Of a DNA stretch of 64,000 nucleotides, positions 26,299 through 64,000 are shown in pieces. A program made the translations under genes and the position numbers. The DNA lies in the IMG/VR virus record IMGVR_UViG_3300036985_006490, positions 98,813 to 162,812 of that record. One strand, 5' to 3'. The number at the start of each line of letters is the position of its first letter. Positions within the stretch are counted from its first letter, which is position 1. The notes beneath the pieces were generated by a model that saw nothing but the letters and a program-made list of their open reading frames with translations, ran no database searches and had not been told where the DNA came from. The DNA is from a virus.

Positions 26299-27962
26299 AG
26301 TATTTTGTGTATTATATAATTATCTAAAACTAACAAGTCTAAATCAGTATCCTTAAAAGTTTCTATCGCGTCAAACGGAGTTAGTACCATTGTTTTATCT
26401 TTAACGTTGAATGATGTATTCAATATAATTGGATACCCACTTAATTTTTCAAACTCAATTAATAAGTCGTGAATTACTGTATTTTCATACACAGTCTGAA
26501 TTCTTGATGTTCCATCCACGTGAACAACCGCAGATAATTTATCTGCAAATTCTTCCCTTACTTTAACAATTTGATTCATGTATGGTATATCATCAATCGT
26601 ATGAAAAAATTCATTTTGTTTTTCTTTAATGACCATAGGCGCGAAAGGACGAAACCCCTCTCTTTTCTTAATCAATCTATTAATTCTGGATTTCATATCG
26701 GGTACAGTAGGGTCGGCTAAAATAGACCTGTGTCCTAATGCTCTCGCTCCGAATTCGATTCTATCTCTATACCACCCAACTACTTTACCTTCATGGATTT
26801 TTTTGGCTACGTATTTTATTAATGTATTGTAATCGTGAATTTCAAAAAAGTTCAAATTTTTAATGTGACCCATATAAAATTCAACATCATACTTTGGCCC
26901 CAAAAAAGGATTCTTAGTTACTCTTTTGTTTAATTTTTTATTTTGTACAAGATAATGAATACAAGCACCAACACAGGACCCTGCATCTGATGGAGCAACT
27001 GGTATCCAAATTTTTTCAAAATCAGAATTGGATACTATCTTCCCATTCGCAGTACCATTGTATGCCGAACCACCTCCTAAGCAAAGATTATTACTACCAA
27101 GATTTTTCAAACTTTTAATAATATCAAACAAAACTTCTTCGTATCTTAATTGAACTGCAGCCGCTAAATTTTGATGAATTGTAGTAATTTCTTCTTCAGT
27201 TAATCTTGGTGAAATACCTAAATGTTCTATTAGTTTTTCGTTGAACATCAATTTTTCTGACTTATCCCAACAAAAAACATCCATGTCACAGATTAATTCT
27301 CCATCTTTGAATTCTATTAAACTTCTAATTTTTTCAATATTCTCTTGAGGGTCTCCATATGACGCTAATCCCATTAATTTATATTCTCCTTCATTTGGTT
27401 TGAACCCCAAATACGAAGTCATTGTAGAATAATAAAACCCCAATGAATGAGGATATTTCCCCAAATCATGATATTCAATTCCATCATCATCCGCCAAACC
27501 AAAAGATAATGTATCAATTTCACCAACACCATCAATAGACAAACAGATTGCCCTTTCAAAATCGGAAGTGAAAAAAGAATAATACTGATGAGCTAAATGG
27601 TGTTCGGAGTAAAATACTCTTCCCTTAAATGGCCTCAAATGTTTATTTACATCTGAGATATTTTTTAAGATCTTAACTAAAGATTTCAAAGAATATTTCG
27701 GTGATTTAAAAAAGTTTTTCTTGATGTTACTAAGTACTCTTTTTAGTTTTAGATTGAGGTCTTCATAATAACAAACCATGTCAATATCGTCATAAGTTAT
27801 ACTATAATGACTAAAGATGTATTCAATTGTATTAATTGGAAAAGAACTATCGTGTTTAATTCCCGTAAATTTTTCCTCTTCACAAGCAAAGACTAACTCC
27901 CCGTCTTTGAATAGACAGACAGATGAATCGTGATAAAAAGATGAAATACCAAGTATGTACAT
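26295..27962 (-). CDS. Carbamoyltransferase (NodU/CmcH family)
   Basis: ILGIS.FYHDSS, EHHLAH, DGVGE, EYKLMGLASYG, EFGARALGHRSILADP, FRPFAP, NTSFN. Confidence 0.95.
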   Translation of the reverse strand: MYILGISSFYHDSSVCLFKDGELVFACEEEKFTGIKHDSSFPINTIEYIFSHYSITYDDIDMVCYYEDLNLKLKRVLSNIKKNFFKSPKYSLKSLVKILKNISDVNKHLRPFKGRVFYSEHHLAHQYYSFFTSDFERAICLSIDGVGEIDTLSFGLADDDGIEYHDLGKYPHSLGFYYSTMTSYLGFKPNEGEYKLMGLASYGDPQENIEKIRSLIEFKDGELICDMDVFCWDKSEKLMFNEKLIEHLGISPRLTEEEITTIHQNLAAAVQLRYEEVLFDIIKSLKNLGSNNLCLGGGSAYNGTANGKIVSNSDFEKIWIPVAPSDAGSCVGACIHYLVQNKKLNKRVTKNPFLGPKYDVEFYMGHIKNLNFFEIHDYNTLIKYVAKKIHEGKVVGWYRDRIEFGARALGHRSILADPTVPDMKSRINRLIKKREGFRPFAPMVIKEKQNEFFHTIDDIPYMNQIVKVREEFADKLSAVVHVDGTSRIQTVYENTVIHDLLIEFEKLSGYPIILNTSFNVKDKTMVLTPFDAIETFKDTDLDLLVLDNYIIHKIL

Positions 27963-29719
27963 TACTGAAAATTTATTAAACTTTGAAAAAAGTTATAGTC
28001 TGTTTTATCTTCATACAAACTTGTAACTATATCTTTATTATGTTTGAACCTTTTTTTTGAGCTTTGATAAAATCCCTGTAATTGGTCTTTGTTCTTACTA
28101 ACTCTCACAATTTCATCAATAATCATTCTCATTCTTTTTTGTGGATTTGGTTCATTATCATAACTTAAATCAAAGAAATCTTCAAAAAAATCTAATCCAT
28201 ATAGTTCTTTTGTCTTTTTAATGTGTTGATGGGTAGCAACAATTAATGGGAATTGTGAATAATAAAAAGGAATCAATGTCTTCTCAGTAATGTGAACTAA
28301 ATTATCTTTTTCAAACTGAGACTCATTGACAATATTGATGTATGAATTTTTGTATGGATTATTTTCAAACATTATATTCCAATCTTGACCTCCATCAGGG
28401 GTATCCACGTCATAATCCTCAAACTCACTTTTTTTAATATTAATATTTTTAAAAAAGTTTAAACTATTTTTTGTTTCGTTAACTAAATCATCGTCAAATA
28501 CTTTCAATAAAAAATCAGAATTTATATCTCCATTTTCTAATTTCATTGAGGATAGTCTATTTCCTCGTAAGAAAGACCAATCGGTATCATCTAATAAATT
28601 ATGGTGTTTAAGCGCGGTTAGAATACCTAATCTGTGTATAGTTAAATTTCTATTATAACACATGAATGTTTTTTCTTTGTTGTTCTTAAAGGGATAACCA
28701 TCACAAAAATTTACAATATTCCTTGTAATTACCACTTGAAGTCTGTTTGAAACATGAACATTTATTTTAGAATTTATCTCATTTTTTAATTGTGGTAATA
28801 ACTGATTACCATTGAGAATAAAAACTTGTTCTGTTGGTATCCCAATCATTTTAAGTTGGTAGTCCGCGATTTTTATAACATATTCCATGTCACATTCATG
28901 TTCCGTTATAAAAATAACTTTGAAGTTTCGATTTTTTTTCAATAAAAGTTTAATTTCTTCTGATAATGGGATATCTCTATGGTCTAAAATATATTGCGAT
29001 AAATAGTAATTTACATGTACCAAATGATAAAAATTTTCATCTTTTCTTTCTAATATTTCACTAACATTACCTATTTTATAATTTTCAATTTCATACCATC
29101 CAGTGCCCATAAAATATTGAATCATAACTGTGTTAGTATTCTCACTCGATTCATCGGGTATAAGATTTAAAATTGTTTTATTATGATATAATTCCGGATA
29201 CTCATTTATTATGTACACACCAACATTATCTTTAGCAAATTGATAGTATAATTTTAAATCATCAATAGTTTTACAATCAAAAATTTTAACATGTTTACAC
29301 AAAGATTTGAATTCTTCTATGTAGTTTGCTTTATGTTGATGCCCTGGATCTAATGGTGTCTCAGACCCTTTACCGACCCTAATTATGATGTGAACTTTTT
29401 CACCCGTCATCAATTCATATTTGTCCACATGGTTTACTAATTGATTGGATGCGGATATTAAAAAGTCCCATCTTGGGTAAAATGTAATAACTCTTTTACC
29501 CGTCATCGCTAAACCCAAACTCATCCCCATTTGCGTTTCTTCCATTACCGGAACTTCAATCATTTTTTCTTTGGGCACATCATCAAGTGTCGTACTCATC
29601 GGATTCCCCCTGTAAACTATTTGTTGACCAATAAAAACGGTATTATCATCATTAGATAAATCGGTCATAATTTTAGAAAGTGTTTCTTTATATGTCATAT
29701 TCTTTGATTTAAAACGCAA
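27962..29719 (-). CDS. Fusion: ThDP-enzyme beta (transketolase/PDH E1-beta pyrimidine-binding) domain + putative glycosyltransferase domain
   Basis: FIGQ, PVMEETQMGMSLGLA, GHQH in the first ~180 aa; C-terminal CYNR...HR...NIVNES...TEK..P shared with three other ORFs. Confidence 0.75.
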   Translation of the reverse strand: MRFKSKNMTYKETLSKIMTDLSNDDNTVFIGQQIVYRGNPMSTTLDDVPKEKMIEVPVMEETQMGMSLGLAMTGKRVITFYPRWDFLISASNQLVNHVDKYELMTGEKVHIIIRVGKGSETPLDPGHQHKANYIEEFKSLCKHVKIFDCKTIDDLKLYYQFAKDNVGVYIINEYPELYHNKTILNLIPDESSENTNTVMIQYFMGTGWYEIENYKIGNVSEILERKDENFYHLVHVNYYLSQYILDHRDIPLSEEIKLLLKKNRNFKVIFITEHECDMEYVIKIADYQLKMIGIPTEQVFILNGNQLLPQLKNEINSKINVHVSNRLQVVITRNIVNFCDGYPFKNNKEKTFMCYNRNLTIHRLGILTALKHHNLLDDTDWSFLRGNRLSSMKLENGDINSDFLLKVFDDDLVNETKNSLNFFKNINIKKSEFEDYDVDTPDGGQDWNIMFENNPYKNSYINIVNESQFEKDNLVHITEKTLIPFYYSQFPLIVATHQHIKKTKELYGLDFFEDFFDLSYDNEPNPQKRMRMIIDEIVRVSKNKDQLQGFYQSSKKRFKHNKDIVTSLYEDKTDYNFFQSLINFQ

Positions 29720-37641: not shown

Positions 37642-38264
37642 ACTTTATCTGTAATACTCTCATATACGTATTGCCCAATTATTTTGTACCCGAGAAGATT
37701 TGGGTGGTAATCTCCTTCGTAAAAATTTTGTTCGTCATTCCATACTAATCTACTATTGTGTTCCCAAACAGATATATCATTATTTAGTTCATACTCTTTT
37801 AATACGTCTGAAACGGTTTTATTTGGATTTATAAAACAAGATGATAGTTCATTTACGTCAATTTCTGTTTCATATTTAAATGTTGGGAAAAACGAATTAA
37901 AATAAAAACGCTTATAACTACTAAGGATATTCTCAATTTTATTATACACCTCAATAACCGTATAGGTATCTCCAGTATATCGATATGGGTAAGAAAACAT
38001 AACAATAATAATATCCGTTTTTTCAATAAAATTATTTTTTATAGATTCCTCAATTTCACGAAAAATATATTCGTTCCCATAACCACAAACACCCATATTT
38101 ACATATTCAATACCACCTAATTTTTCCGATGTCCATCTTGGCCAAGAATTTTGGTTTCTAAGTTTTTCAATAAAAATGGGAGCATTTGCGGTTTCTTTAT
38201 ATTCAGTATTATTTTCAATTCCATGACCCGCAGTCCAACTATCACCAAAACAAATTAATCTCAT
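37638..38264 (-). CDS. SGNH-like protein
   Basis: FGDSWTAGHG, SWP, NMGVCG.GN, DYHPNLLGY. Confidence 0.7.
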   Translation of the reverse strand: MRLICFGDSWTAGHGIENNTEYKETANAPIFIEKLRNQNSWPRWTSEKLGGIEYVNMGVCGYGNEYIFREIEESIKNNFIEKTDIIIVMFSYPYRYTGDTYTVIEVYNKIENILSSYKRFYFNSFFPTFKYETEIDVNELSSCFINPNKTVSDVLKEYELNNDISVWEHNSRLVWNDEQNFYEGDYHPNLLGYKIIGQYVYESITDKV

Positions 38265-39574
38265 GACATGATTGTTTTAAAAAATTCATAATCATCATTG
38301 TTATTTTTGATTTCACTAATAATTTTTTGATTATTTATTAATCTATGAGTATTCTGTTTATAGAATTTTATAACATCTTCTTTATTATTTTTTAGTCTAA
38401 TCACTTCATCAATCAACATTGTTATTCTATTACCTATATATTTTTCATTATCGTAATCATGATTAATTAAATCATCGTAAAAATCAAAACCATATTTATC
38501 TTTCATATATTTTATATGATTCTGAGTAGCGACAATCAAAGGTAAGTTATAGTATGCAAATGGCCTAAATGATTTTTCACTAATATGGATAACATTAAAA
38601 TCGTCTCTAAACTGAGATTCTGTTACAATATTCACATATGAATTCATATATGAAAAACTATCTTCAGGTATCAATAATCCACCCGACTCCATTGCGGCTT
38701 CTCCTAACTCAGGAAATTCATTTTTATCAAAAATTATTTCTCCATTTTCACTAAAATATTTTTTATTAACCTCATAATCACTTTCCTTTATTTTGATTGA
38801 AAAAAGTTTTTTTATTTCATTTTCACAACTGTTAACGATATCGATGGGTAAAGCCTCGTTCAACCAAACATAATCTTCGGGTGGTCGTATTTGGCCAGTA
38901 ACTAAAGACCAATTCACGTCGTCAATTAAATCACTTTTATGCAATAATGCTAATGTCGCATACCGGTGTGGCTTTGAAGACTTGTTATGACATATAAATA
39001 ATTTACCAGTTTTTTCAGTTATTAATGGTGGTTTAAAATCGGAAAAGATACTATTACTAGTAATTGGTATTAGTTGTAATTGATTAAACTGAATATTTCC
39101 ATTGTGGTTTAGATTATACATTTGAAAGTTTCCGTTATTATTCAATAACATAAAGTGATTATCATTTAAACCATTTTTGGCGATATAATCTTTTAATGCC
39201 ACATATCCCAACTCATCATCACTTTCATGTTCGGTTAAAAAAACAATTGTGAAATTATTGCAACTTCTCAAACAATTCAATACTTCATCAGAAAAGGAAA
39301 GTTTTCTTTCTTTAAACATCTCGTTAATAGATAAAGATGTTTTTATGAAAAAGTAGTAGTTTAAATTTTTATTCTCGTATACCTCTTGTATTTTATGAAA
39401 TGTTCTTGGGAGAGAATGTCTCTCATATTTTCCTAAACTATGGTAAAATCTTTCATAAAAATCAAAAAACCCATCTTCATATCTAAACCCATCCGATCCA
39501 AAAAATTCTGAACAATTAGGCAATGGATTATCTCCGTTCCACTTTTCAAAAACAAGTCTAATATTTTTATTCAT
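38261..39574 (-). CDS. Putative glycosyltransferase (repeated HR...IVTES...SEK..P family)
   Basis: FICHNK..KPHR, NIVTESQF, ISEKSFRP, GFDFYDDLINHDYD. Confidence 0.55.
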   Translation of the reverse strand: MNKNIRLVFEKWNGDNPLPNCSEFFGSDGFRYEDGFFDFYERFYHSLGKYERHSLPRTFHKIQEVYENKNLNYYFFIKTSLSINEMFKERKLSFSDEVLNCLRSCNNFTIVFLTEHESDDELGYVALKDYIAKNGLNDNHFMLLNNNGNFQMYNLNHNGNIQFNQLQLIPITSNSIFSDFKPPLITEKTGKLFICHNKSSKPHRYATLALLHKSDLIDDVNWSLVTGQIRPPEDYVWLNEALPIDIVNSCENEIKKLFSIKIKESDYEVNKKYFSENGEIIFDKNEFPELGEAAMESGGLLIPEDSFSYMNSYVNIVTESQFRDDFNVIHISEKSFRPFAYYNLPLIVATQNHIKYMKDKYGFDFYDDLINHDYDNEKYIGNRITMLIDEVIRLKNNKEDVIKFYKQNTHRLINNQKIISEIKNNNDDYEFFKTIMS

Positions 39575-40905
39575 TTTAATAATTCTATTAATTTATGAAA
39601 TCCGATGGGTGGTTTAAATGTAGAATTAAATAGTAATACTTTTGAATTATGTTCTAATGTTGGTCTTAACCACCCAAGCCATTGTAGTTTATCTCGATTT
39701 GATTTTAATGCATTTATTATATCCTTGATCGCATGAAATCTATCATTACTATTCAGATTATCATATGATTCATCTATTAAATCATGAAAAGTTTTATATC
39801 CTAATTTTTTTAATTCTTTCAAAGAACCTTTATTTCCTAAAATGACAAACGGATGTTGGCAGGCGATTGGTTTAAATACTTTTTCACTTAAAAAAACAGT
39901 TTCTTGCCTATCTTCATATTGAGCTTCACTAACTATACTAAACCAAGAATCTAATGTTGCCTGTTCATTCAGATTATCCATGTAAAATCTGAAGGATTCA
40001 ATCTCATTACTAACCCCATATGCATAAGTTGGTAAATCTTTTAGAGCATATTCTATTTTTTCTTTTGATAAAATAGATGAATCAATCATTATATCTGAAC
40101 TAGTATTAAAAGAATTCATACTAACCAATCCATGTTTAAGTAAATCATATTTTTTCAACATATAATAAAACCATATTCTATGATGTCTTGGTTTTTTATT
40201 CAAAAAGTTATAAATTTTAATATTATCAATATTTTTACTTTTATAATCAAGCTGGTCTTGGAAATTTGGAATTTTTGTTAGATTCAAATCAGTTCTGTTT
40301 CGAACTACCTCCGATATATCAAATTCAAAATGAGAATAGGGGATTACTTGTATTAAGTCCTTTATTGAATTTTTTTTACTCCAATCTACCAATCTGTCTT
40401 CTATATCAGAGTTTCCACTAACATATATAATTTGTGTTTGTGATATATTATATTCCAAACATTTCGAATGAAAGTAATCAAAAATAAAATAGTCAAAATA
40501 TCCCTCTTGTGACGAATCAAATAATAAAAATGCTTTTTTATTTTGTAAATCATTTAGATATTTTTCAGATAATTTTGAAAAAAAATCAGGTAAATTTCTT
40601 TCTATTTCTGATTTACCATATCTCCCACCAATCCAATTTTCAGGAGACTGAGTAACTCCAATCGATATAATATATTTTTCATTTATAACTTTATCAGAAT
40701 CATAAATATTAATAAAATATTCATTTCCAAAATATTCTATTGCACCTTCCTCTCCATCTCTTAATTTAGAATAATATACCCGAAGTTGGTTTAATCTATT
40801 TACATAAGGAGACATAACTACTCTTGAAAATCCACTTGTTAGTTTTTCCTCTTCATTATATAAATTTCGTAAATTATTAATATCTTCAAAAACAAAATTT
40901 AACAT
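39571..40905 (-). CDS. Putative glycosyltransferase (same family)
   Basis: NFLNKKPRHHR, SIVSEAQY, LSEKVFKP, GYKTF...DESYD. Confidence 0.55.
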   Translation of the reverse strand: MLNFVFEDINNLRNLYNEEEKLTSGFSRVVMSPYVNRLNQLRVYYSKLRDGEEGAIEYFGNEYFINIYDSDKVINEKYIISIGVTQSPENWIGGRYGKSEIERNLPDFFSKLSEKYLNDLQNKKAFLLFDSSQEGYFDYFIFDYFHSKCLEYNISQTQIIYVSGNSDIEDRLVDWSKKNSIKDLIQVIPYSHFEFDISEVVRNRTDLNLTKIPNFQDQLDYKSKNIDNIKIYNFLNKKPRHHRIWFYYMLKKYDLLKHGLVSMNSFNTSSDIMIDSSILSKEKIEYALKDLPTYAYGVSNEIESFRFYMDNLNEQATLDSWFSIVSEAQYEDRQETVFLSEKVFKPIACQHPFVILGNKGSLKELKKLGYKTFHDLIDESYDNLNSNDRFHAIKDIINALKSNRDKLQWLGWLRPTLEHNSKVLLFNSTFKPPIGFHKLIELLK

Positions 40906-40934: not shown

Positions 40935-42107
40935 TCAAGTTCTATTTTTAATTCTTGTATCTCCATAATGAATTACTTCTATATTATCATTTTTATATTT
41001 TCTCCATGGATCTAACACAATAGAATTTTTCGTAAACTTATAATCGTGATGTTTATCATAATGCCCTAAAAGATATACCGCATCAATAGGTATTTCTGAA
41101 TCGTAAATTACGTTTAAACCCTCTTGTTCAATATAATACCCCACCAATATTGATGATGATCCATCAATATAATCAACATTTGGTTTATATGATTTACCTA
41201 AAATAACCACAGGTAAATTATGTTGTACTGAAAGTTGGATTAGTTTTAATGCCATATTTTTAGCTTGTTTTTCTCTAGCCGTCATAATAGAATCAAACAA
41301 ATCATAACCCAAATTTAATTTTTCCGCTAAAAATCTTAATGCAATATTATCTCTAGGGTGGCAACCTCCACCATCTCCCATACCAGCCTTCATATATGCA
41401 GGCCCTAAGATTCTTTGAGTGCTTCTTTCTAATGCTCCCGTAACAACATCAACATTCATGTTACCGTTTTTTTCAGCAACATCTTGAATCATATTGACAA
41501 GTGCAACTTTAGTTGAAATGAATGTGTTGTAAAAGATTTTAATCCCTTCCGCTTCATCCCATGTACCCACTTCGTATCTAGTCTCGGATTTTACAAATGT
41601 TTTATAAAAATCTATTAGTAATTTAGCGTCTCCAGTTGTGGTTCCATCCTCTGTACCAATAATAATCATTTCAGGATTAACCATATCCCATTTAACAGTA
41701 CCCATAGCAATTAGATATGGATTATATATAAATCTAAAATTATCACATAAACTAATAAATTCTCTTCTAATTGTACCTGGAAGTACTGTGGAGATTAAAA
41801 CAACAAGTTGATTTTTATTAGTATACTTGTTAACCTCAGTCAATACACTTTTAACTATAGAATAATCAAAATCCTTGTTTTCTAAGTGTGATGTAGGGTA
41901 TCTACCATCATAATCAACATGATGTGGTGTTGGGACTGCGACAAAAATTATTTCTCTACCTTTACAGACATTCTCAATAGAATCAACCACATCAAACCTA
42001 TCTGTGTTAACTTTTTGTATATCATAACCAATTACATCGTGATGATATGACATCACTTCCGCAGCATCTTTACCTAATTTTCCAATACCTATGAATCCTA
42101 TTTTCAT
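40935..42107 (-). CDS. UDP-glucose/GDP-mannose 6-dehydrogenase
   Basis: GIGKLG, VPTP, STVLPGT, K..YN...K, GGGCHPRD. Confidence 0.9.
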   Translation of the reverse strand: MKIGFIGIGKLGKDAAEVMSYHHDVIGYDIQKVNTDRFDVVDSIENVCKGREIIFVAVPTPHHVDYDGRYPTSHLENKDFDYSIVKSVLTEVNKYTNKNQLVVLISTVLPGTIRREFISLCDNFRFIYNPYLIAMGTVKWDMVNPEMIIIGTEDGTTTGDAKLLIDFYKTFVKSETRYEVGTWDEAEGIKIFYNTFISTKVALVNMIQDVAEKNGNMNVDVVTGALERSTQRILGPAYMKAGMGDGGGCHPRDNIALRFLAEKLNLGYDLFDSIMTAREKQAKNMALKLIQLSVQHNLPVVILGKSYKPNVDYIDGSSSILVGYYIEQEGLNVIYDSEIPIDAVYLLGHYDKHHDYKFTKNSIVLDPWRKYKNDNIEVIHYGDTRIKNRT

Positions 42108-44386
42108 ATTATACCTAATTTTATTTGATTTATTAATGATAGTATTTCTTTGTAACTATTCATACTATCACCGTTAAAAGTATACTTATGTGTAACCATT
42201 TGAAGATAATTTATTCTATTGTGTTCACAAATTTCAGACATTTCATTTCTAATCTGTTTTAATTCATCAACCGTACTATTTTTAAATTTTTCAATTTCAT
42301 TTATTATCATTTCTGACCTAATACTCATTTCCTCCTCATTGTCGTAACTTTCATCAAACCACTTGTCAAAAGTTTTGAACCCAAGTTCTTTTAGTTTTTT
42401 GAGAGTCCCTTTATTACCTAGTACCATAAATGGGTGACCGCACGAAATAGGTTTCCATATTTTTTCAGATAAAAAAAGTGTAAACTTATCTGTCAAACTT
42501 TCAGTCACAATCGAAATAAATGTATCTTCGTGGTCTTGAATTGTAATCTCATTTGCCCAATTATATTCTAACCCTCTATCAATTTCAATTGGTGCTCTTT
42601 TTTGTAATTGATTAATTGGGTGATCCTCGGGTAAATCTTGAACATATTGAAATTGATTCAAACTCACCTTACCTATATCTAATAGTCCTTTTGATAAAAT
42701 ATTAGACAAAAAATGTACTCTGTGAGGTCTAACATTTCTATTGTAGGATAAATACAGAAATTTATTATCTCTTGGATTGAATTGAATTGGTTCGGTTCTT
42801 TCTCTCATCACATGATAATTAACCCAATTATCAAAAATTGAAATCGGAATACATTTAAAGTCCATTCCTTTGCTTTTTGCAATTTCTTCAATAATTAAAT
42901 TACCACTTAATAAGAAAACAAATTTTGATGGAATATCTAATTCTTTTATCCAAGAATTTAATATTTCTAAATCATTATTATTTTCAGATCCAATATAACC
43001 TTCCAAACCGTTTACTAAAACTAATTTACATAATCCTGATTTTATATCTTTTATATATTTTTCTGAAATACACTTGAATCCAATTTTTTCGTTTCTTACA
43101 AAAAAATTAGGGTGAAAAACATTTATAAGATAAATGTATGTTTCATCATTTATTTTTTCCTTTAGTTCCTGATGAACCTGATGTTCCGCTAGTTCCTGAT
43201 GAACCATATGTTCCACTAGTTCCTGATGAACCACTTGTTCCTGAAGTGCCGTCTGTACCACTTGAACCTGAGGTTCCGCTTGTCTAAAATCTACAAATTC
43301 TTCATAAAAATTTGGCGCTACTTGGTCTTTATATGTATTATATCCGAAAAGTTTATAGTTACTATTCACATCCATCAAATTCCATGCCCCCCACATTTTG
43401 GGTATATCTAGTCTCCCCTCTTCTTCCAAATACCAAGTTCTACTTGACCCATTTGGCCTTGGGCAACCTAATATCGAATCGTATTCTTCTAACCCGAAAA
43501 CAAGTTTTTCTTTAAAGAATATCTCATATATACCCCTTTCCAATAATTTTGGTGAAAAGTTTAAAATATATTTTTCTAAATTATCAAAACTTACATAATA
43601 AGATCTAAATTCTAGTCCATCATCCACAAAATCTATATCAATTTTTTTATCTATTGATTGTTCAATTTTATTTATTAATTGTCTTTTAGTTATATTAAAT
43701 TTAGTATAACCGACATTTATTACTTTATTTTCTATATTTTGTGTACATAATCTAAAAATAATTTCTGAACAATCTCTAACATTTAAATTTGGCCGATAAG
43801 CTTCTGGCTCATATATCTGAATCTTTTTATTATTTTTGACATCGTTTACTATATTATTTATTAACAAATCATCCCTTTCAATAATTCCTACACCATATAA
43901 TGTTGATAATCTTACAATTAAATAATTTTCAATACCCGAGTTTAAAATTTGTTTTTCTCCTTCTATTTTTAATTTAGAGTACATTGTCGTTGGTATTAAT
44001 TCGGTGTTTTCATCAACAACCTCATTGGTATTACCATAAACACTACAACTACTGAAGAATATTAACTTGTAATTAGGTGATACCTTTCTAACACATTTCA
44101 ATGTGTTATCCATTAATAAAATCTCGGAGGCAATGTGTAAGTCGTCCCTAATTTCACTAAATCTTGGTGATGCCATATACAAAACACAATCGATATTTTG
44201 AAGTTTATCCAAATGATTTGTTATGTTTGTGAGGTCATCCTTAATATATGTTACATTTTGCGGATTATCCTTCACATTCCAATACTTAAAAGTATCATAC
44301 ACAATGACTTCCTGTCTTCTTTCCGAAATTAATTCGGACAATACACTACCGAGGTAACCACCGCCTCCTAATAATAAAAATTTCAT
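42104..44386 (-). CDS. Fusion: NAD-dependent sugar epimerase + putative glycosyltransferase, carrying a 39-aa repeat-derived insert
   Basis: GGGGYLGS, SSCSVYG, YSKLK, RLSTLYG; C-terminal SYNRNVRPHR...SIVTES...LSEKIWKP. Confidence 0.8.
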   Translation of the reverse strand: MKFLLLGGGGYLGSVLSELISERRQEVIVYDTFKYWNVKDNPQNVTYIKDDLTNITNHLDKLQNIDCVLYMASPRFSEIRDDLHIASEILLMDNTLKCVRKVSPNYKLIFFSSCSVYGNTNEVVDENTELIPTTMYSKLKIEGEKQILNSGIENYLIVRLSTLYGVGIIERDDLLINNIVNDVKNNKKIQIYEPEAYRPNLNVRDCSEIIFRLCTQNIENKVINVGYTKFNITKRQLINKIEQSIDKKIDIDFVDDGLEFRSYYVSFDNLEKYILNFSPKLLERGIYEIFFKEKLVFGLEEYDSILGCPRPNGSSRTWYLEEEGRLDIPKMWGAWNLMDVNSNYKLFGYNTYKDQVAPNFYEEFVDFRQAEPQVQVVQTALQEQVVHQELVEHMVHQELAEHQVHQELKEKINDETYIYLINVFHPNFFVRNEKIGFKCISEKYIKDIKSGLCKLVLVNGLEGYIGSENNNDLEILNSWIKELDIPSKFVFLLSGNLIIEEIAKSKGMDFKCIPISIFDNWVNYHVMRERTEPIQFNPRDNKFLYLSYNRNVRPHRVHFLSNILSKGLLDIGKVSLNQFQYVQDLPEDHPINQLQKRAPIEIDRGLEYNWANEITIQDHEDTFISIVTESLTDKFTLFLSEKIWKPISCGHPFMVLGNKGTLKKLKELGFKTFDKWFDESYDNEEEMSIRSEMIINEIEKFKNSTVDELKQIRNEMSEICEHNRINYLQMVTHKYTFNGDSMNSYKEILSLINQIKLGII
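43163..43279 (-). repeat. Isolated 117-bp copy of the tail-fibre Gly-X-Ser repeat unit
   Basis: gttcctgatgaacc and cacttgaacctgaggttccgct motifs match 62.8-64 kb; abrupt GC rise within an AT-rich gene. Confidence 0.9.
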
Positions 44387-61048: not shown

Positions 61049-61981
61049 TTATAAAGGGTCGCAAACACTTCCATTACAGAAGTATAAACCTAATATCTCT
61101 CCACTCGAGTTTATTTCCGCTATTTGGAATGGTCCAGTAGCAGTATCGGTCGATACGTTAGAATACGCTATAAACCCTGCTCCCGATATTCCATAAATAA
61201 AATCTCCTATGGTAAGTCCTGCGTATGTATCATCAGCACTCGTTAGGGTCGTTATATTATAGTTCGTAGTACAATAGTCCGAACAAGTCGCTCTCACCGC
61301 TCCGTGAGTATAAATTGTTGGATACGGAGTTGAACTTGGTGTTGATGCTGGTGGTGTTGATGATGGTGTTGATGCTGGTGTTGATGCTGGTGTTGATGCT
61401 GGTGTTGATGCTGGTGTTGATGCTGGTGTTGACGGTGGAGTTACAGATGGAGTTGGTGTTGGTGAAGCACATACTCCGAATACTGACATTGCTCCGTCAG
61501 TTCCAACTTGAAATACTTCTGACTTACTAATTGAACCATACCACTGGTCACCACCATTATATTTGTTTGCATTTATGAATGTTGTAGCACTGTATATTGC
61601 TAATCCATAAGTTACTGCCGCTTCTTGGAATGAAATTATACCCGACTGTGGAACATAAACAGTTCTAGAAGTAGTAGTTCCCGTACAAAAATTAGTATCT
61701 GATGTGAATCCTGACACTCCATTAGAAGTACCTAAAATCAATGCTGTGAATGTAAGCCCATCACAAGTATAATCATCAATGGTAGTTAATCCTCCCATGT
61801 CAGCAGATAAAGTTGTCTGACTACTTGCAGGAATTGCTGAAACCCCAAGAGCTTGAGGAGGTTCTCTAAGGGCTCCTAATATTCCATTAAGTGAAATATT
61901 AAACGTTGGAAGTGGGAATCCGAATGCGTCATAGACACACGACATTGCAATTTCAGATCCTGTGGCCGGAGTTAATCCCAT
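61049..61981 (-). CDS. Putative fibre/structural protein: shared 73-aa module + Cys-bounded domains + TPAS linker
   Basis: N-terminus nearly identical to 62010-62231; (TPAS)n linker. Confidence 0.6.
   Translation of the reverse strand: MGLTPATGSEIAMSCVYDAFGFPLPTFNISLNGILGALREPPQALGVSAIPASSQTTLSADMGGLTTIDDYTCDGLTFTALILGTSNGVSGFTSDTNFCTGTTTSRTVYVPQSGIISFQEAAVTYGLAIYSATTFINANKYNGGDQWYGSISKSEVFQVGTDGAMSVFGVCASPTPTPSVTPPSTPASTPASTPASTPASTPASTPSSTPPASTPSSTPYPTIYTHGAVRATCSDYCTTNYNITTLTSADDTYAGLTIGDFIYGISGAGFIAYSNVSTDTATGPFQIAEINSSGEILGLYFCNGSVCDPL
61337..61435. repeat. 12-bp coding tandem repeat (TPAS)n
   Basis: ggtgttgatgct repeated ~7 times. Confidence 0.85.
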
Positions 61982-62242
61982 TTTTAATTATTGTTATGAA
62001 GGCATTATGTTAACAGATATAATCATCAGGTGTGGTTAATCCTCCCATATCTGCAGAAAGTGTTGTTGTAGTACCTGAAGGGATTGCAGTTACCCCGAGT
62101 GCTTGAGGAGGTTGCCTCAAAGACCCTAATGTCGCATTAAGTGATATATTTATTGTTGGAATTGGAAACCCAAATGCGTCATAGACACACGACATTGCAA
62201 TTTCAGATCCTGTGGCCGGAGTTAATCCCATTTTTAATTATT
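61923..62242. repeat. Perfect 70-bp direct repeat (61923-61992 and 62173-62242) covering both gene starts
   Basis: aatgcgtcatagacacacgac...gttaatcccatttttaattatt identical in both copies, 250 bp apart. Confidence 0.9.
62010..62231 (-). CDS. Small structural protein, stand-alone paralog of the 61049-61981 N-terminus
   Basis: MGLTPATGSEIAMSCVYDAFGFP...LSADMGGLTT.DDY.C. Confidence 0.7.
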   Translation of the reverse strand: MGLTPATGSEIAMSCVYDAFGFPIPTINISLNATLGSLRQPPQALGVTAIPSGTTTTLSADMGGLTTPDDYIC

Positions 62243-62263
62243 ATTATTATTATTTTTAAGTAT

Positions 62264-62316: not shown

Positions 62317-64000
62317 CTATTTTTTTATTATATTTTTTAGTTCATCAATTTGAACTTGTTGTTCTTTAACACACTCAATCAATAGAGCTACAATTCTTTC
62401 ATATTTGACCGCCAAGTAACCATTTTCTCTTCGTGTAACAATTTCAGGTAAAACTTCTTGAATTTCCTGAGCAATCACTCCAATATCATGACCTTCGTTT
62501 TCATGTATTCCTTCCATAGGAATCCAATCATATTCATATCCGCCTATTTGATTAATTTTATCAATAGGATTAGTTATTGGTGAGATGTTTTCTTTCAGTC
62601 TCCTATCTGAACCGTAGAACGCTACAACGTCATTGGTTGCTCTAATCAAACCAGTAGTTGTTGGTGTATTTGTTCCAACTCCTAATGCTCCGTTTATGTA
62701 TGCTGTAGTACCATCAAAGGTAAAGTTAGCTTCACCATTAATGGTTCCCGCGGTTCCTGTTGCAGTAAGGACAAAATCATTTGTATTATTGTTAATTGTT
62801 CCTAATCCTGATGAACCACTTGACCCTGATGTTCCGCTTGTTCCACTTGAACCTGATGAACCACTTGAACCTGATGAACCACTTGTTCCTGAAGTTCCAC
62901 TTGAACCTGATGAACCACTCGATCCAGACGAACCTGATGTTCCGCTTGTTCCACTTGAACCTGATGAACCACTTGAACCTGATGAACCTGAGGTTCCGCT
63001 AGTTCCGCTTGAACCTGATGAACCACTTGTTCCTGATGAACCTGAGGTACCACTAGTACCACTTGTTCCTGAAGAACCTGATGTTCCGCTAGTTCCTGAT
63101 GAACCACTTGTTCCTGAAGTACCGTCTGTACCACTTGAACCAGATGTTCCACTTGTTCCTGATGAACCTGAAGTACCACTAGTTCCTGATGAACCACTTG
63201 TTCCTGATGTTCCACTAGTTCCTGATGAACCTGATGTTCCTGAAGTTCCATCTGTACCACTTGAACCTGATGAACCACTTGTTCCTGATGTTCCAGAAGA
63301 CCCTGAAGTTCCACTAGTTCCTGATGAACCGCTTGAACCACTTGTTCCTGATGTTCCATCTGTGCCACTTGAACCTGAGGTTCCGCTAGTTCCACTTGAA
63401 CCAGATGTTCCACTTGTTCCTGATGAACCTGAGGTACCACTAGTTCCTGATGAACCGCTTGTTCCTGATGTTCCATCTGTGCCACTTGAACCTGAGGTTC
63501 CGCTAGTTCCTGATGAACCAGATGTTCCACTTGTTCCTGATGAACCTGAGGTACCACTAGTTCCTGATGAACCACTTGTTCCTGATGTTCCATCTGTGCC
63601 ACTTGATCCTGAGGTTCCGCTAGTTCCTGATGAACCAGATGTTCCACTTGTTCCTGATGAACCTGAGGTACCACTAGTTCCTGATGAACCACTTGTTCCT
63701 GATGTTCCATCTGTGCCACTTGATCCTGAGGTTCCGCTAGTTCCTGATGAACCAGATGTTCCACTAGTACCACTTGTTCCTGATGTTCCACTTGAACCGC
63801 TTGTTCCTGAAGTTCCATCTGTGCCACTTGAACCTGAGGTCCCGCTAGTTCCACTTGAACCACTAGTTCCTGATGTTCCTGAAGAACCTGATGTTCCGCT
63901 AGTTCCTGATGAACCACTTGTTCCTGAAGTACCGTCTGTACCACTTGAACCAGATGTTCCACTTGTTCCTGATGAACCTGAAGTACCACTAGTTCCTGAT
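62317..64000 (-). CDS. Tail fibre protein, 5'-truncated by the window: (Gly-X-Ser/Asp)n collagen-like region + C-terminal Peptidase_S74 chaperone
   Basis: The frame of ORF 62317-62649 continues upstream without a stop (...GTSGSSGLGTINNNTNDFVLTATG...GEANFTFDG...IRATNDVVAFYGSDRRLKENI...GVIAQEI...P..V...V.Y). Confidence 0.85.
   Translation of the reverse strand, partial: SGTSGTSGSSGTSGTSGSSGTDGTSGTSGSSGTSGTSGSSGTSGTSGSSGTSGTSGSSGTDGTSGTSGSSGTSGTSGTSGTSGSSGTSGTSGSSGTDGTSGTSGSSGTSGTSGSSGTSGTSGSSGTSGTSGSSGTDGTSGTSGSSGTSGTSGSSGTSGTSGSSGTSGTSGSSGTDGTSGTSGSSGTSGTSGSSGTSGTSGSSGTSGTSGSSGTDGTSGTSGSSGSSGTSGTSGSSGTSGTSGSSGSSGTDGTSGTSGSSGTSGTSGTSGSSGTSGTSGSSGTSGTSGSSGTDGTSGTSGSSGTSGTSGSSGTSGTSGTSGSSGTSGSSGSSGTSGTSGSSGSSGSSGSSGTSGTSGSSGSSGSSGSSGTSGTSGSSGSSGSSGSSGTSGTSGSSGSSGLGTINNNTNDFVLTATGTAGTINGEANFTFDGTTAYINGALGVGTNTPTTTGLIRATNDVVAFYGSDRRLKENISPITNPIDKINQIGGYEYDWIPMEGIHENEGHDIGVIAQEIQEVLPEIVTRRENGYLAVKYERIVALLIECVKEQQVQIDELKNIIKK
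62805..64000. repeat. 9-bp GTS/GSS/GTD triplet array with a 117-bp higher-order period and an 810-bp-offset duplication
   Basis: gaggtaccactag at 63431, 63548 and 63665; 63065-63190 repeated at 63875-64000. Confidence 0.9.

What the first reader, a model, noticed from the sequence alone, without database searches (positions are those of the whole stretch)
43163..43279. Exactly one 117-bp tail-fibre repeat unit inserted into an epimerase-fusion gene and read in a shifted frame
Seen: 117 bp that read SGTSGSSGTDGTSGTSGSSGTSGTYGSSGTSGTSGSSGT in the fibre frame lie inside gene 42104-44386. There they are translated as AEPQVQVVQTALQEQVVHQELVEHMVHQELAEHQVHQEL, the same alternative frame as the shadow ORF 62802-63989. 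The length equals the fibre's higher-order period (63431/63548/63665) and follows the same triplet order. Removing it leaves a clean ...VDFRQ-KEKIN... junction. The minus-strand junctions (agacaa|gcggaa ... ggaacta|aaggaa) show only microhomology. The copy is not identical to any unit visible in the window (TSG>TYG and synonymous differences). Inference: a one-unit circle popped out of the repeat array and integrated ~20 kb away by microhomology, creating a new Gln/Val/Glu/His segment by frame-shifted reuse.
Basis: partly seen in the sequence, partly recalled or inferred. Interest (0 to 1): 0.85.

Follow-up and report, generated by a model that had tools for sequence, protein, structure and literature searches.

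The report
Fibre repeat unit copied into enzyme gene
A freshwater phage has pasted one 117-base stretch of its collagen-like fibre repeat into a sugar-enzyme gene, where a different reading frame turns it into 39 new amino acids; the event is real and recent, but it is an ordinary illegitimate-recombination insertion and not a new kind of system.

Summary
Window 43163-43279 (minus strand) is a 117-bp copy of one higher-order period of the collagen-like array at 62.8-64 kb. It matches two array units at 105/117 (E 5e-41). It sits in gene 42104-44386 and is read in the same shifted frame as shadow ORF 62802-63989.

None of 72 aligned homologues has a residue in these 39 columns, and four related contigs show the empty site (AGACAA|AAAGAAAAA). 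It is not an assembly artefact:
- A separate ENA assembly, 98.7% identical over 14.8 kb, carries the identical insert.
- Contigs from two other studies bridge both junctions.
- One lake run holds an exactly empty allele with about 99% identical flanks.

Ten of the 12 differences from the nearest units fall on collagen-frame third positions and are silent there. The true donor unit is therefore not in view, and the insert has changed by at most one codon (Ser to Tyr) since it arrived.

The insert lies in a loop of a GT-B-like domain and is the only poorly modelled stretch. Three of six orientation/frame readings of the unit are stop-free.

The "one-unit circle" mechanism is unsupported. GGAAC(A/T)A|G sites recur at 45, 63, 90 and 117 nt, so template switching explains the length equally well. 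I found no other dispersed copy.

The parts
43163..43279 (-). The 117-bp insert (gene nt 1108-1224, residues 370-408). It is a copy of one period of a collagen-like array, read 2 nt out of the collagen frame.
   Evidence: 90% to the array units, E 5e-41. It is absent from 72 of 72 aligned homologues and from the DNA of L016-L019. It is identical in the independent assembly L026.
42104..44386 (-). Host gene, 760 aa (P0001): an SDR-type sugar epimerase/dehydratase domain fused to a GT-B-like domain.
   Evidence: Pfam PF01370 with E 1e-22 over residues 4-226. AlphaFold model has pLDDT 90.5. Foldseek hits are Cj1427 and UDP-GlcA 4-epimerase for the N-domain and GT-B transferases for the C-domain.
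43709..44377 (-). Epimerase (Rossmann/SDR) domain, residues 4-226.
42107..43510 (-). GT-B-like C-terminal domain, residues about 293-760. It also occurs as a stand-alone protein of about 425 aa in other viruses. The insert lies 77 residues into it, between strands 365-369 and 417-422.
   Evidence: (stand-alone homologues and matches from residue 293/294).
43280..43285 (-). Upstream target flank AGACAA (Arg-Gln codons).
   Evidence: It is identical in filled and empty sites. With some array units, which read GGAACAA|G, it shares up to 4 nt (ACAA) of microhomology.
43154..43162 (-). Downstream target flank AAGGAAAAA. Every empty site reads AAAGAAAAA, a single silent A>G change beside the junction.
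62317..63999 (-). 3' part of the fibre gene (P0002): a proline-free Gly-X-Y array followed by a Peptidase_S74 chaperone domain. The 5' end is cut off by the contig end.
   Evidence: Pfam Collagen E 3e-57 and Peptidase_S74 E 6e-19. The window end is the record end.
63334..63999 (-). The part of the array with the 117-bp higher-order period (5.8 copies).
63504..63737 (-). The two visible array units closest to the insert, each 105/117. They are not the donor.
62802..63989 (-). Stop-free shadow frame of the array, Gln/Val/Glu/His-rich. It is the frame in which the insert is translated.

Best explanation
This is a real and evolutionarily recent ectopic insertion. A 117-bp stretch, 13 nonamers long and equal to one higher-order period, was copied from a proline-free collagen-like fibre array. 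The array was either this phage's own, about 20 kb away and partly unassembled, or that of a close co-infecting relative.

The copy landed between the Gln and Lys codons of an epimerase/GT-B fusion gene by illegitimate recombination. The most likely route is copy-choice template switching, or break repair with copied filler DNA, using homologies of 4 nt or less (inferred).

The insertion survived for three reasons. Its length is a multiple of three. The frame it landed in is one of the three stop-free readings of the unit. The site is a loop between two strands at the N-terminal edge of the GT-B-like domain. The result is a 39-residue Gln/Val/Glu/His-rich excursion that is probably neutral or nearly so (inferred). 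The allele is polymorphic in freshwater phage populations.
For: - **Copy of the array:** 105/117 to the phage's own units with E 5e-41, and 107/117 to a unit in relative G001.
- **Derived state:** 0 of 72 homologues, down to about 36% identity, have residues in the insert columns. In A3, 1 of 45 rows does: a window paralogue with a single residue. Related contigs L016-L019 and L036 show the empty site AGACAA|AAAGAAAAA.
- **Not an artefact:** ENA scaffold L026 is 98.7% identical over 14,772 bp (176 mismatches) and has the identical insert and junctions. Logan contigs of runs X1 and X7, from two studies, run 37-59 nt into the insert from each side. X3 reaches 29-30 nt.
- **Recent and polymorphic:** a 549-bp contig in run X8 skips exactly 43163-43279, with 4 mismatches in 402 flank bases.
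- **Codon-position pattern:** 10 of the 12 differences from the nearest own units are at collagen-frame third positions and silent in that frame, while all change the residue in the host frame. The binomial P for 10 or more of 12 at one codon position is about 5e-4. The divergence therefore arose inside arrays, and only the Ser>Tyr codon looks post-insertional.
- **Why it was tolerated:** residues 375-408 are the only segment with pLDDT below 50 in a model of mean pLDDT 90.5, and they lie between strands 365-369 and 417-422. Three of six orientation/frame readings are stop-free.
- **Host gene still intact:** it is open in two strains 1.05% apart within this gene, with 10 amino-acid changes in 760.
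Against: - The donor unit has not been identified, and no exact source exists in the visible array or in IMG/VR.
- Junction homology is weak. One nucleotide is certain, up to 4 nt (ACAA) depends on which unit was the donor, and GGAA lies 2 nt off the right junction. A microhomology-guided mechanism is therefore plausible but not demonstrated.
- The length equals one higher-order period exactly, which a circle model predicts outright and template switching predicts only about 1 time in 4.
- I have no functional data on the protein with the insert.
Confidence: 0.78

Rival explanations
1. Intramolecular recombination in the array releases a one-unit, 117-bp circle, which then integrates into the enzyme gene by microhomology.
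For: The insert length equals the array's higher-order period. Joining the insert's end to its start recreates a normal array junction, CAGGAACTA|GCGGAAC.
Against: - The same end-to-start continuity follows from any copy that enters and leaves the array at equivalent GGAAC(A/T)A|G sites. These recur at 45, 63, 90 and 117 nt of the unit.
- By established DNA physics, a 117-bp duplex is shorter than the persistence length, so cyclisation is very unfavourable.
- Only one dispersed copy exists in 162.8 kb, and none in nine related contigs.
- In relative G001 the array periods are 144, 90 and 63, not 117. The 117 period is therefore a local, fast-changing feature.
Confidence: 0.08
2. The donor was the collagen-like array of a different, co-infecting phage rather than this phage's own fibre gene. 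The segment would then have been acquired horizontally.
For: - A relative's array (G001) is slightly closer to the insert than the phage's own visible units, at 107 against 105 of 117.
- Words of this repeat type reach summed depths of 10^3-10^4 in the freshwater and sediment runs, against about 4-17 for the flanks. Many arrays of this kind therefore coexist.
- Mosaic patches between lineages occur in this very gene.
Against: The phage's own array is incompletely assembled, so an exact own donor cannot be excluded. A donor in cis is the simpler assumption. G001 is a close relative whose array is the orthologous one.
Confidence: 0.2
3. Assembly chimera: short-read assembly wrongly threaded repeat reads into the enzyme gene.
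For: The contig ends in the same repeat family. Logan contigs break inside the insert.
Against: - The insert and junctions are identical in an independent assembly from another sample, which differs at 176 other positions.
- Contigs from several studies enter the insert from both sides.
- The insert differs from every array unit by at least 10 bases, so its k-mers are largely unique.
- The insertion is exactly in frame.
Confidence: 0.01
4. The segment is a small mobile element of the MITE or Rickettsia-palindromic-element type that inserts in frame into genes.
For: Its size is close to the ~150-bp RPEs, and it is translated in frame like them (PMC10969869). A 13-nt imperfect inverted pair lies near its ends, at 43174-43186 and 43264-43276.
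Against: - That inverted pair is the near-palindromic GAACCTnAGGTTC word, which recurs throughout the array. It is not terminal.
- There is no target-site duplication.
- There is a single dispersed copy.
- The single-strand fold is weak, with z -2.3 and a centroid that is almost unpaired.
Confidence: 0.03
5. The insert was retained because it is useful, for example as a His/Glu-rich helical arm for metal binding or oligomerisation of the transferase, rather than being a neutral passenger.
For: It persists unchanged in two strains that differ by 1.3% and occurs in runs from several studies. The model gives it two short helices, 377-384 and 392-403. It holds 7 His in 39 residues.
Against: With 1.3% divergence, zero changes in 117 bp is expected by chance. 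Its pLDDT is below 50. An empty allele coexists in a near-identical background. No homologue has anything at this site.
Confidence: 0.1

Closest known systems
Templated (filler-DNA) insertions and copy-choice template switching during replication or double-strand-break repair. This is illegitimate recombination at microhomologies. The comparison rests on general knowledge; a literature search on templated insertion and microhomology turned up nothing specific to phages.
   Same: A short stretch copied from elsewhere appears at a site with little or no homology, there is no target duplication, and the donor stays in place.
   Different: Here the donor is a coding tandem array. The copy is 117 bp, longer than typical filler. 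It is fixed in a natural phage lineage, translated, and read in another frame. The enzymes responsible are unknown.
Rickettsia palindromic elements and other intragenic MITEs (ERIC, BOX) that insert in frame into genes and add peptide segments (review PMC10969869).
   Same: Repeat DNA of about 100-150 bp is translated inside an otherwise conserved enzyme, apparently at a structurally tolerant position.
   Different: There are no terminal inverted repeats or hairpin, no target duplication and no family of dispersed copies. The donor is a protein-coding repeat, not a selfish element.
Presence/absence and length polymorphism of collagen-like Gly-X-Y blocks in phage fibre and hyaluronidase genes, known from my own knowledge of streptococcal prophage hylP alleles. 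See also collagen-like prophage proteins of E. coli O157 (PMC3368898, title and abstract only).
   Same: Collagen-like repeat DNA in phages is recombinogenic and changes in whole-triplet steps.
   Different: Those changes stay within fibre-type genes and keep the Gly-X-Y frame. Here a unit has moved to an unrelated enzyme gene and is read out of frame.
New protein segments created by frame-shifted translation of duplicated coding sequence (overprinting and frameshift-derived novelty; general knowledge).
   Same: An existing coding sequence yields an unrelated peptide in a second frame.
   Different: The new frame arises because the copy landed at another codon phase in a different gene. It does not come from an indel or an overlapping gene at the original locus.

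Membership tests
Ectopic templated insertion (illegitimate recombination) | The insert is a copy of sequence present elsewhere in the genome or a co-resident genome. | tested here: met
   105/117 to the phage's own array units with E 5e-41, and 107/117 to the array of relative G001. No exact donor was found.
Ectopic templated insertion (illegitimate recombination) | The empty ancestral site is documented, with no target-site duplication. | tested here: met
   Empty sites are seen in L016-L019 and L036 and in the X8 contig. Filled and empty flanks differ by one silent A>G only.
Ectopic templated insertion (illegitimate recombination) | Microhomology between donor and target at both junctions. 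| tested here: inconclusive
   One nucleotide is ambiguous at the junction ('both 1'). On the left there are up to 4 nt (ACAA) with some units. On the right, GGAA lies 2 nt away. The donor is unknown.
MITE / RPE-like mobile element | Terminal inverted repeats or a palindromic fold. | tested here: not met
   Only the array's internal near-palindromic word is present, and it is not terminal. The fold has z -2.3 with a weak centroid.
MITE / RPE-like mobile element | Multiple dispersed copies and target-site duplication. | tested here: not met
   There is one copy in 162.8 kb, none outside arrays in nine related contigs, and no duplication.
Circle excision and reintegration | The insert is one whole repeat period whose ends join into a normal array junction. 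| tested here: met
   This does not discriminate, because template switching between equivalent sites gives the same result.
Circle excision and reintegration | Free circular intermediate. | not testable with these tools
   Only contigs were available, with no raw or long reads.
Diversity-generating retroelement (template repeat copied into variable repeat) | Adenine-specific differences between template and copy, with a homologous target. | tested here: not met
   Differences start from A, C and T alike (5 of 12 from A), and the target has no homology.
NAD-dependent epimerase/dehydratase (SDR), host gene N-domain | Pfam PF01370 above the gathering score, with a Rossmann fold. | tested here: met
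   81 bits against a cut-off of 20.9. Foldseek gives E 7e-19 to Cj1427 and UDP-GlcA 4-epimerase. Catalytic residues were not checked.
GT-B glycosyltransferase, host gene C-domain | Two-Rossmann GT-B fold and a family signature. | tested here: inconclusive
   All top Foldseek hits are GT-B enzymes (SdgB, BshA, TarM, T4 BGT), with E 2e-6 but TM of only 0.3-0.4. There is no Pfam hit and no PDB sequence hit.
Collagen-like phage fibre with an S74 intramolecular chaperone | Gly-X-Y array plus a C-terminal Peptidase_S74 domain. | tested here: met
   PF01391 E 3e-57 and PF13884 E 6e-19. No tail, capsid or terminase marker was found in the half-genome record, so 'tail' fibre is inferred.

The most novel reading that the evidence does not exclude
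Collagen-like fibre arrays of these ~330-kb freshwater phages might act as a recurrent source of short, stop-free 'peptide cassettes'. These would be sprayed into other genes, much like Rickettsia palindromic elements but derived from a coding repeat. That would make them a regular route to new protein segments in jumbo phages, perhaps through small excised repeat units.
Probability: 0.05. Interest if true: 0.6.

Novelty: new member of a known kind. Interest (0 to 1): 0.3.

Why it matters
This is a clean natural example of how a new protein segment is born. The filled allele, a near-identical empty allele, the donor repeat family and the structural context are all visible at once. The codon-position pattern of the differences dates the event without needing a phylogeny.

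It also carries two practical warnings. Proline-free GTS/GSS collagen arrays are so abundant in freshwater metagenomes that they break contigs. A stray unit inside an enzyme gene can easily be mistaken for a misassembly. It does not reveal a new mechanism or system.

Tried and rejected
- **Peptide search, representatives:** a phmmer search of the 43-residue insert peptite region (P0001:368-410) against 1.8 billion representatives gave 0 hits.
- **Peptide search, shadow ORF:** a word-index search with the shadow-ORF protein among longer proteins gave 0 hits. Both searches lack the power to detect a 39-residue, compositionally biased segment. They say nothing about whether other genes hold such units.
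- **Exact-word scans:** scans of IMG/VR for the left junction and for the Tyr-variant word found nothing. Scans of JGI metagenome contigs for both junctions also found nothing. The window's own record is excluded from these scans. The filled allele is therefore known only from this record, the ENA scaffold and the Logan contigs.
- **Virus markers:** NCLDV capsid, terminase and tail-sheath Pfam searches of the 162.8-kb record were all negative. The record is about 49% complete, so this does not settle the virus type. Relatives' contigs of 329-343 kb and PHROG hits point to a jumbo phage.
- **Cultured phages:** tblastn found only weak epimerase-domain hits.
- **DGR-type copying:** rejected, because there is no adenine bias.
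- **Run X3:** its contigs reach only 29-30 nt into the insert, just under the 31-nt bridging rule, so I do not count it as bridging.
- **The A>G beside the right junction:** I considered it as a trace of the event. It is flanked by target-derived bases on both sides, so an ordinary silent substitution is the simpler reading.

Full report
**Context.** The window is the last 64 kb of a 162,812-bp IMG/VR virus record that CheckV rates as 49% complete. The record ends inside the collagen-like array, so the 5' part of the fibre gene is not assembled. Close relatives occur on contigs of 329-343 kb, and runs that hold the sequence are freshwater, lake and sediment metagenomes. Capsid, terminase and sheath profiles found nothing in this half-genome. 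I therefore call it a probable jumbo phage, and "tail fibre" is an inference from Collagen plus Peptidase_S74 domains.

**The observation.** ORF 42104-44386 (minus strand, 760 aa) reads ...FVDFRQ AEPQVQVVQTALQEQVVHQELVEHMVHQELAEHQVHQEL KEKIND.... The 117 bases 43163-43279 read GTSGSSGTDGTSGTSGSSGTSGTYGSSGTSGTSGSSGT two bases further on.
- The best matches are array units 63504-63620 and 63621-63737, at 105/117 and E 5e-41 within the record. There is no other dispersed copy.
- The array has a 117-bp higher-order period over 63334-63999.
- The shadow ORF 62802-63989 uses the same frame as the insert.

**It is an insertion.** Among the 105 homologues found, the full-length fusion forms are mostly 721 aa. 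Only P0001 and a 98%-identical ENA protein are 760 aa.
- In a 73-sequence alignment, no other sequence has a residue in the 39 insert columns. Two paralogous domains of the same window also lack the segment.
- At DNA level, L016-L019 and L036 read GATTTTAGACAA|AAAGAAAAAATAAAT. The window reads the same flanks around the 117 bp, with one silent A>G in the Lys codon and no target duplication.

**It is not an artefact.** ENA scaffold L026 comes from another sample and is 98.7% identical over 14,772 bp, with 176 mismatches. It carries the identical insert and junctions.
- Logan contigs of X1 and X7, from two studies, run 37-59 nt into the insert from unique flanks on both sides. X3 reaches 29-30 nt.
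- In X8, a 549-bp contig skips exactly 43163-43279 with 4 mismatches in 402 flank bases. That is an empty allele in a background closer than any IMG/VR relative; L016 is 92.1% identical over the gene.
- Contigs break inside the insert because words of this repeat type reach summed depths of 10^3-10^4 in these communities.

**Donor and age.** Of the 12 differences from the closest own units, 10 sit on collagen-frame third positions and are silent in that frame. All of them change the residue in the host frame. The exception is one codon, Ser to Tyr.
- Random post-insertion change would hit that codon position one time in three. P for 10 or more of 12 is about 5e-4.
- The divergence therefore accumulated inside collagen arrays. 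The donor was a unit not visible here, and the insert itself has changed by at most one codon.
- This fits the near-identical empty allele and the unchanged copy in L026.
- A unit of the orthologous array in the empty-site relative G001 is as close as the phage's own (107/117). That array has other periods, 144, 90 and 63. Units therefore turn over quickly, and the donor could be the phage's own or foreign.

**Mechanism.** The junctions show 1 nt of certain overlap. With units that end in GGAACAA, the left junction shares ACAA with the target AGACAA. At the right junction, GGAA lies two bases away.
- The word GGAAC(A/T)A followed by G recurs at 45, 63, 90 and 117 nt of the unit.
- A polymerase that leaves the target at ...ACAA, copies the array and returns from an equivalent word would give one of these lengths. 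"Exactly one period" is thus roughly a 1-in-4 outcome and not a signature of a circle.
- A 117-bp duplex circle is also physically unfavourable (established DNA stiffness).
- I therefore favour template switching or break repair with copied filler. This is an inference, and nothing here can exclude a circle.
- MITE/RPE-type mobility and DGR copying fail their defining features.

**Why it survived.** The length is 39 codons, and three of the six orientation/frame readings have no stop.
- The AlphaFold model of the whole protein is confident (mean pLDDT 90.5). The exception is residues 375-408, which form a low-confidence, partly helical excursion between strands 365-369 and 417-422.
- The N-domain matches sugar-nucleotide epimerases and dehydrogenases.
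- The C-domain has no Pfam or PDB sequence match, but its best structural matches are all GT-B transferases, at modest TM. "Epimerase-GT fusion" is reasonable at fold level.
- The gene is intact in both strains.

**Generality.** I found no other isolated array-like segment in this record or in nine related contigs of about 460 kb in total. The protein-level searches had no power. This looks like a single event.

**Verdict.** This is a well-documented instance of a known class of mutation: ectopic in-frame insertion by illegitimate recombination, with out-of-frame reuse of coding sequence. It is not a new system.

Noticed in passing
L035-L037, gene nt about 111-179 (relatives of window gene 42104-44386, near window 44240-44275): A second, independent in-frame insertion exists in the same gene in another lineage. 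The 744-aa forms carry 69 extra bases after codon 38. About half of these bases are a 90%-identical tandem duplication of the adjacent NVTYIK-coding stretch, and the rest is unmatched filler. I detected no link to the collagen array.
   Followed up: partly
window 43514-43564 (gene nt 823-873): Fifteen of the 24 differences between the window gene and its 99% twin L026 cluster in 51 bp. In that patch L026 resembles the more distant L018 lineage. This looks like a short gene-conversion or mosaic tract, which shows frequent recombination among co-occurring lineages.
   Followed up: partly
window 43163-43279, and 62807-64000: Words of this proline-free GTS/GSS collagen repeat reach summed contig depths of 10^3-10^4 in four freshwater and sediment runs, against about 4-17 for the flanking unique sequence. 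Such arrays are very abundant and break assemblies; this record itself ends inside one.
   Followed up: no
window 61768-62247: A 250-bp tandem repeat (1.9 copies, 83% matches) spans the 5' part of ORF 61049-61981 and the spacer before the fibre gene. ORF 61049-61981 also holds a 12/36-bp coding repeat at 61326-61464.
   Followed up: no
G001 (record of L016) 1-2212; G007 (record of L022) 101240-101716: Related phage contigs also begin or end inside their collagen arrays. In G001 the higher-order periods are 144, 90 and 63 rather than 117, so array architecture changes quickly between relatives whose neighbouring enzyme gene is 92% identical.
   Followed up: partly
window 38261-39574, 39571-40905, 27962-29719 (C-terminus): Paralogues of the GT-B-like domain lie in the same sugar-modification gene cluster. 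Two of them align with the host gene's C-domain at 21-28% identity. The family has no Pfam model and also occurs as stand-alone proteins of about 425 aa in many metagenomic viruses.
   Followed up: partly
window 43174-43186 / 43264-43276, and throughout the array: The repeat contains the near-palindromic word GAACCTnAGGTTC (GGAAC...GTTCC). Short hairpins at such words could stall replication and favour template switching. I did not test this.
   Followed up: no
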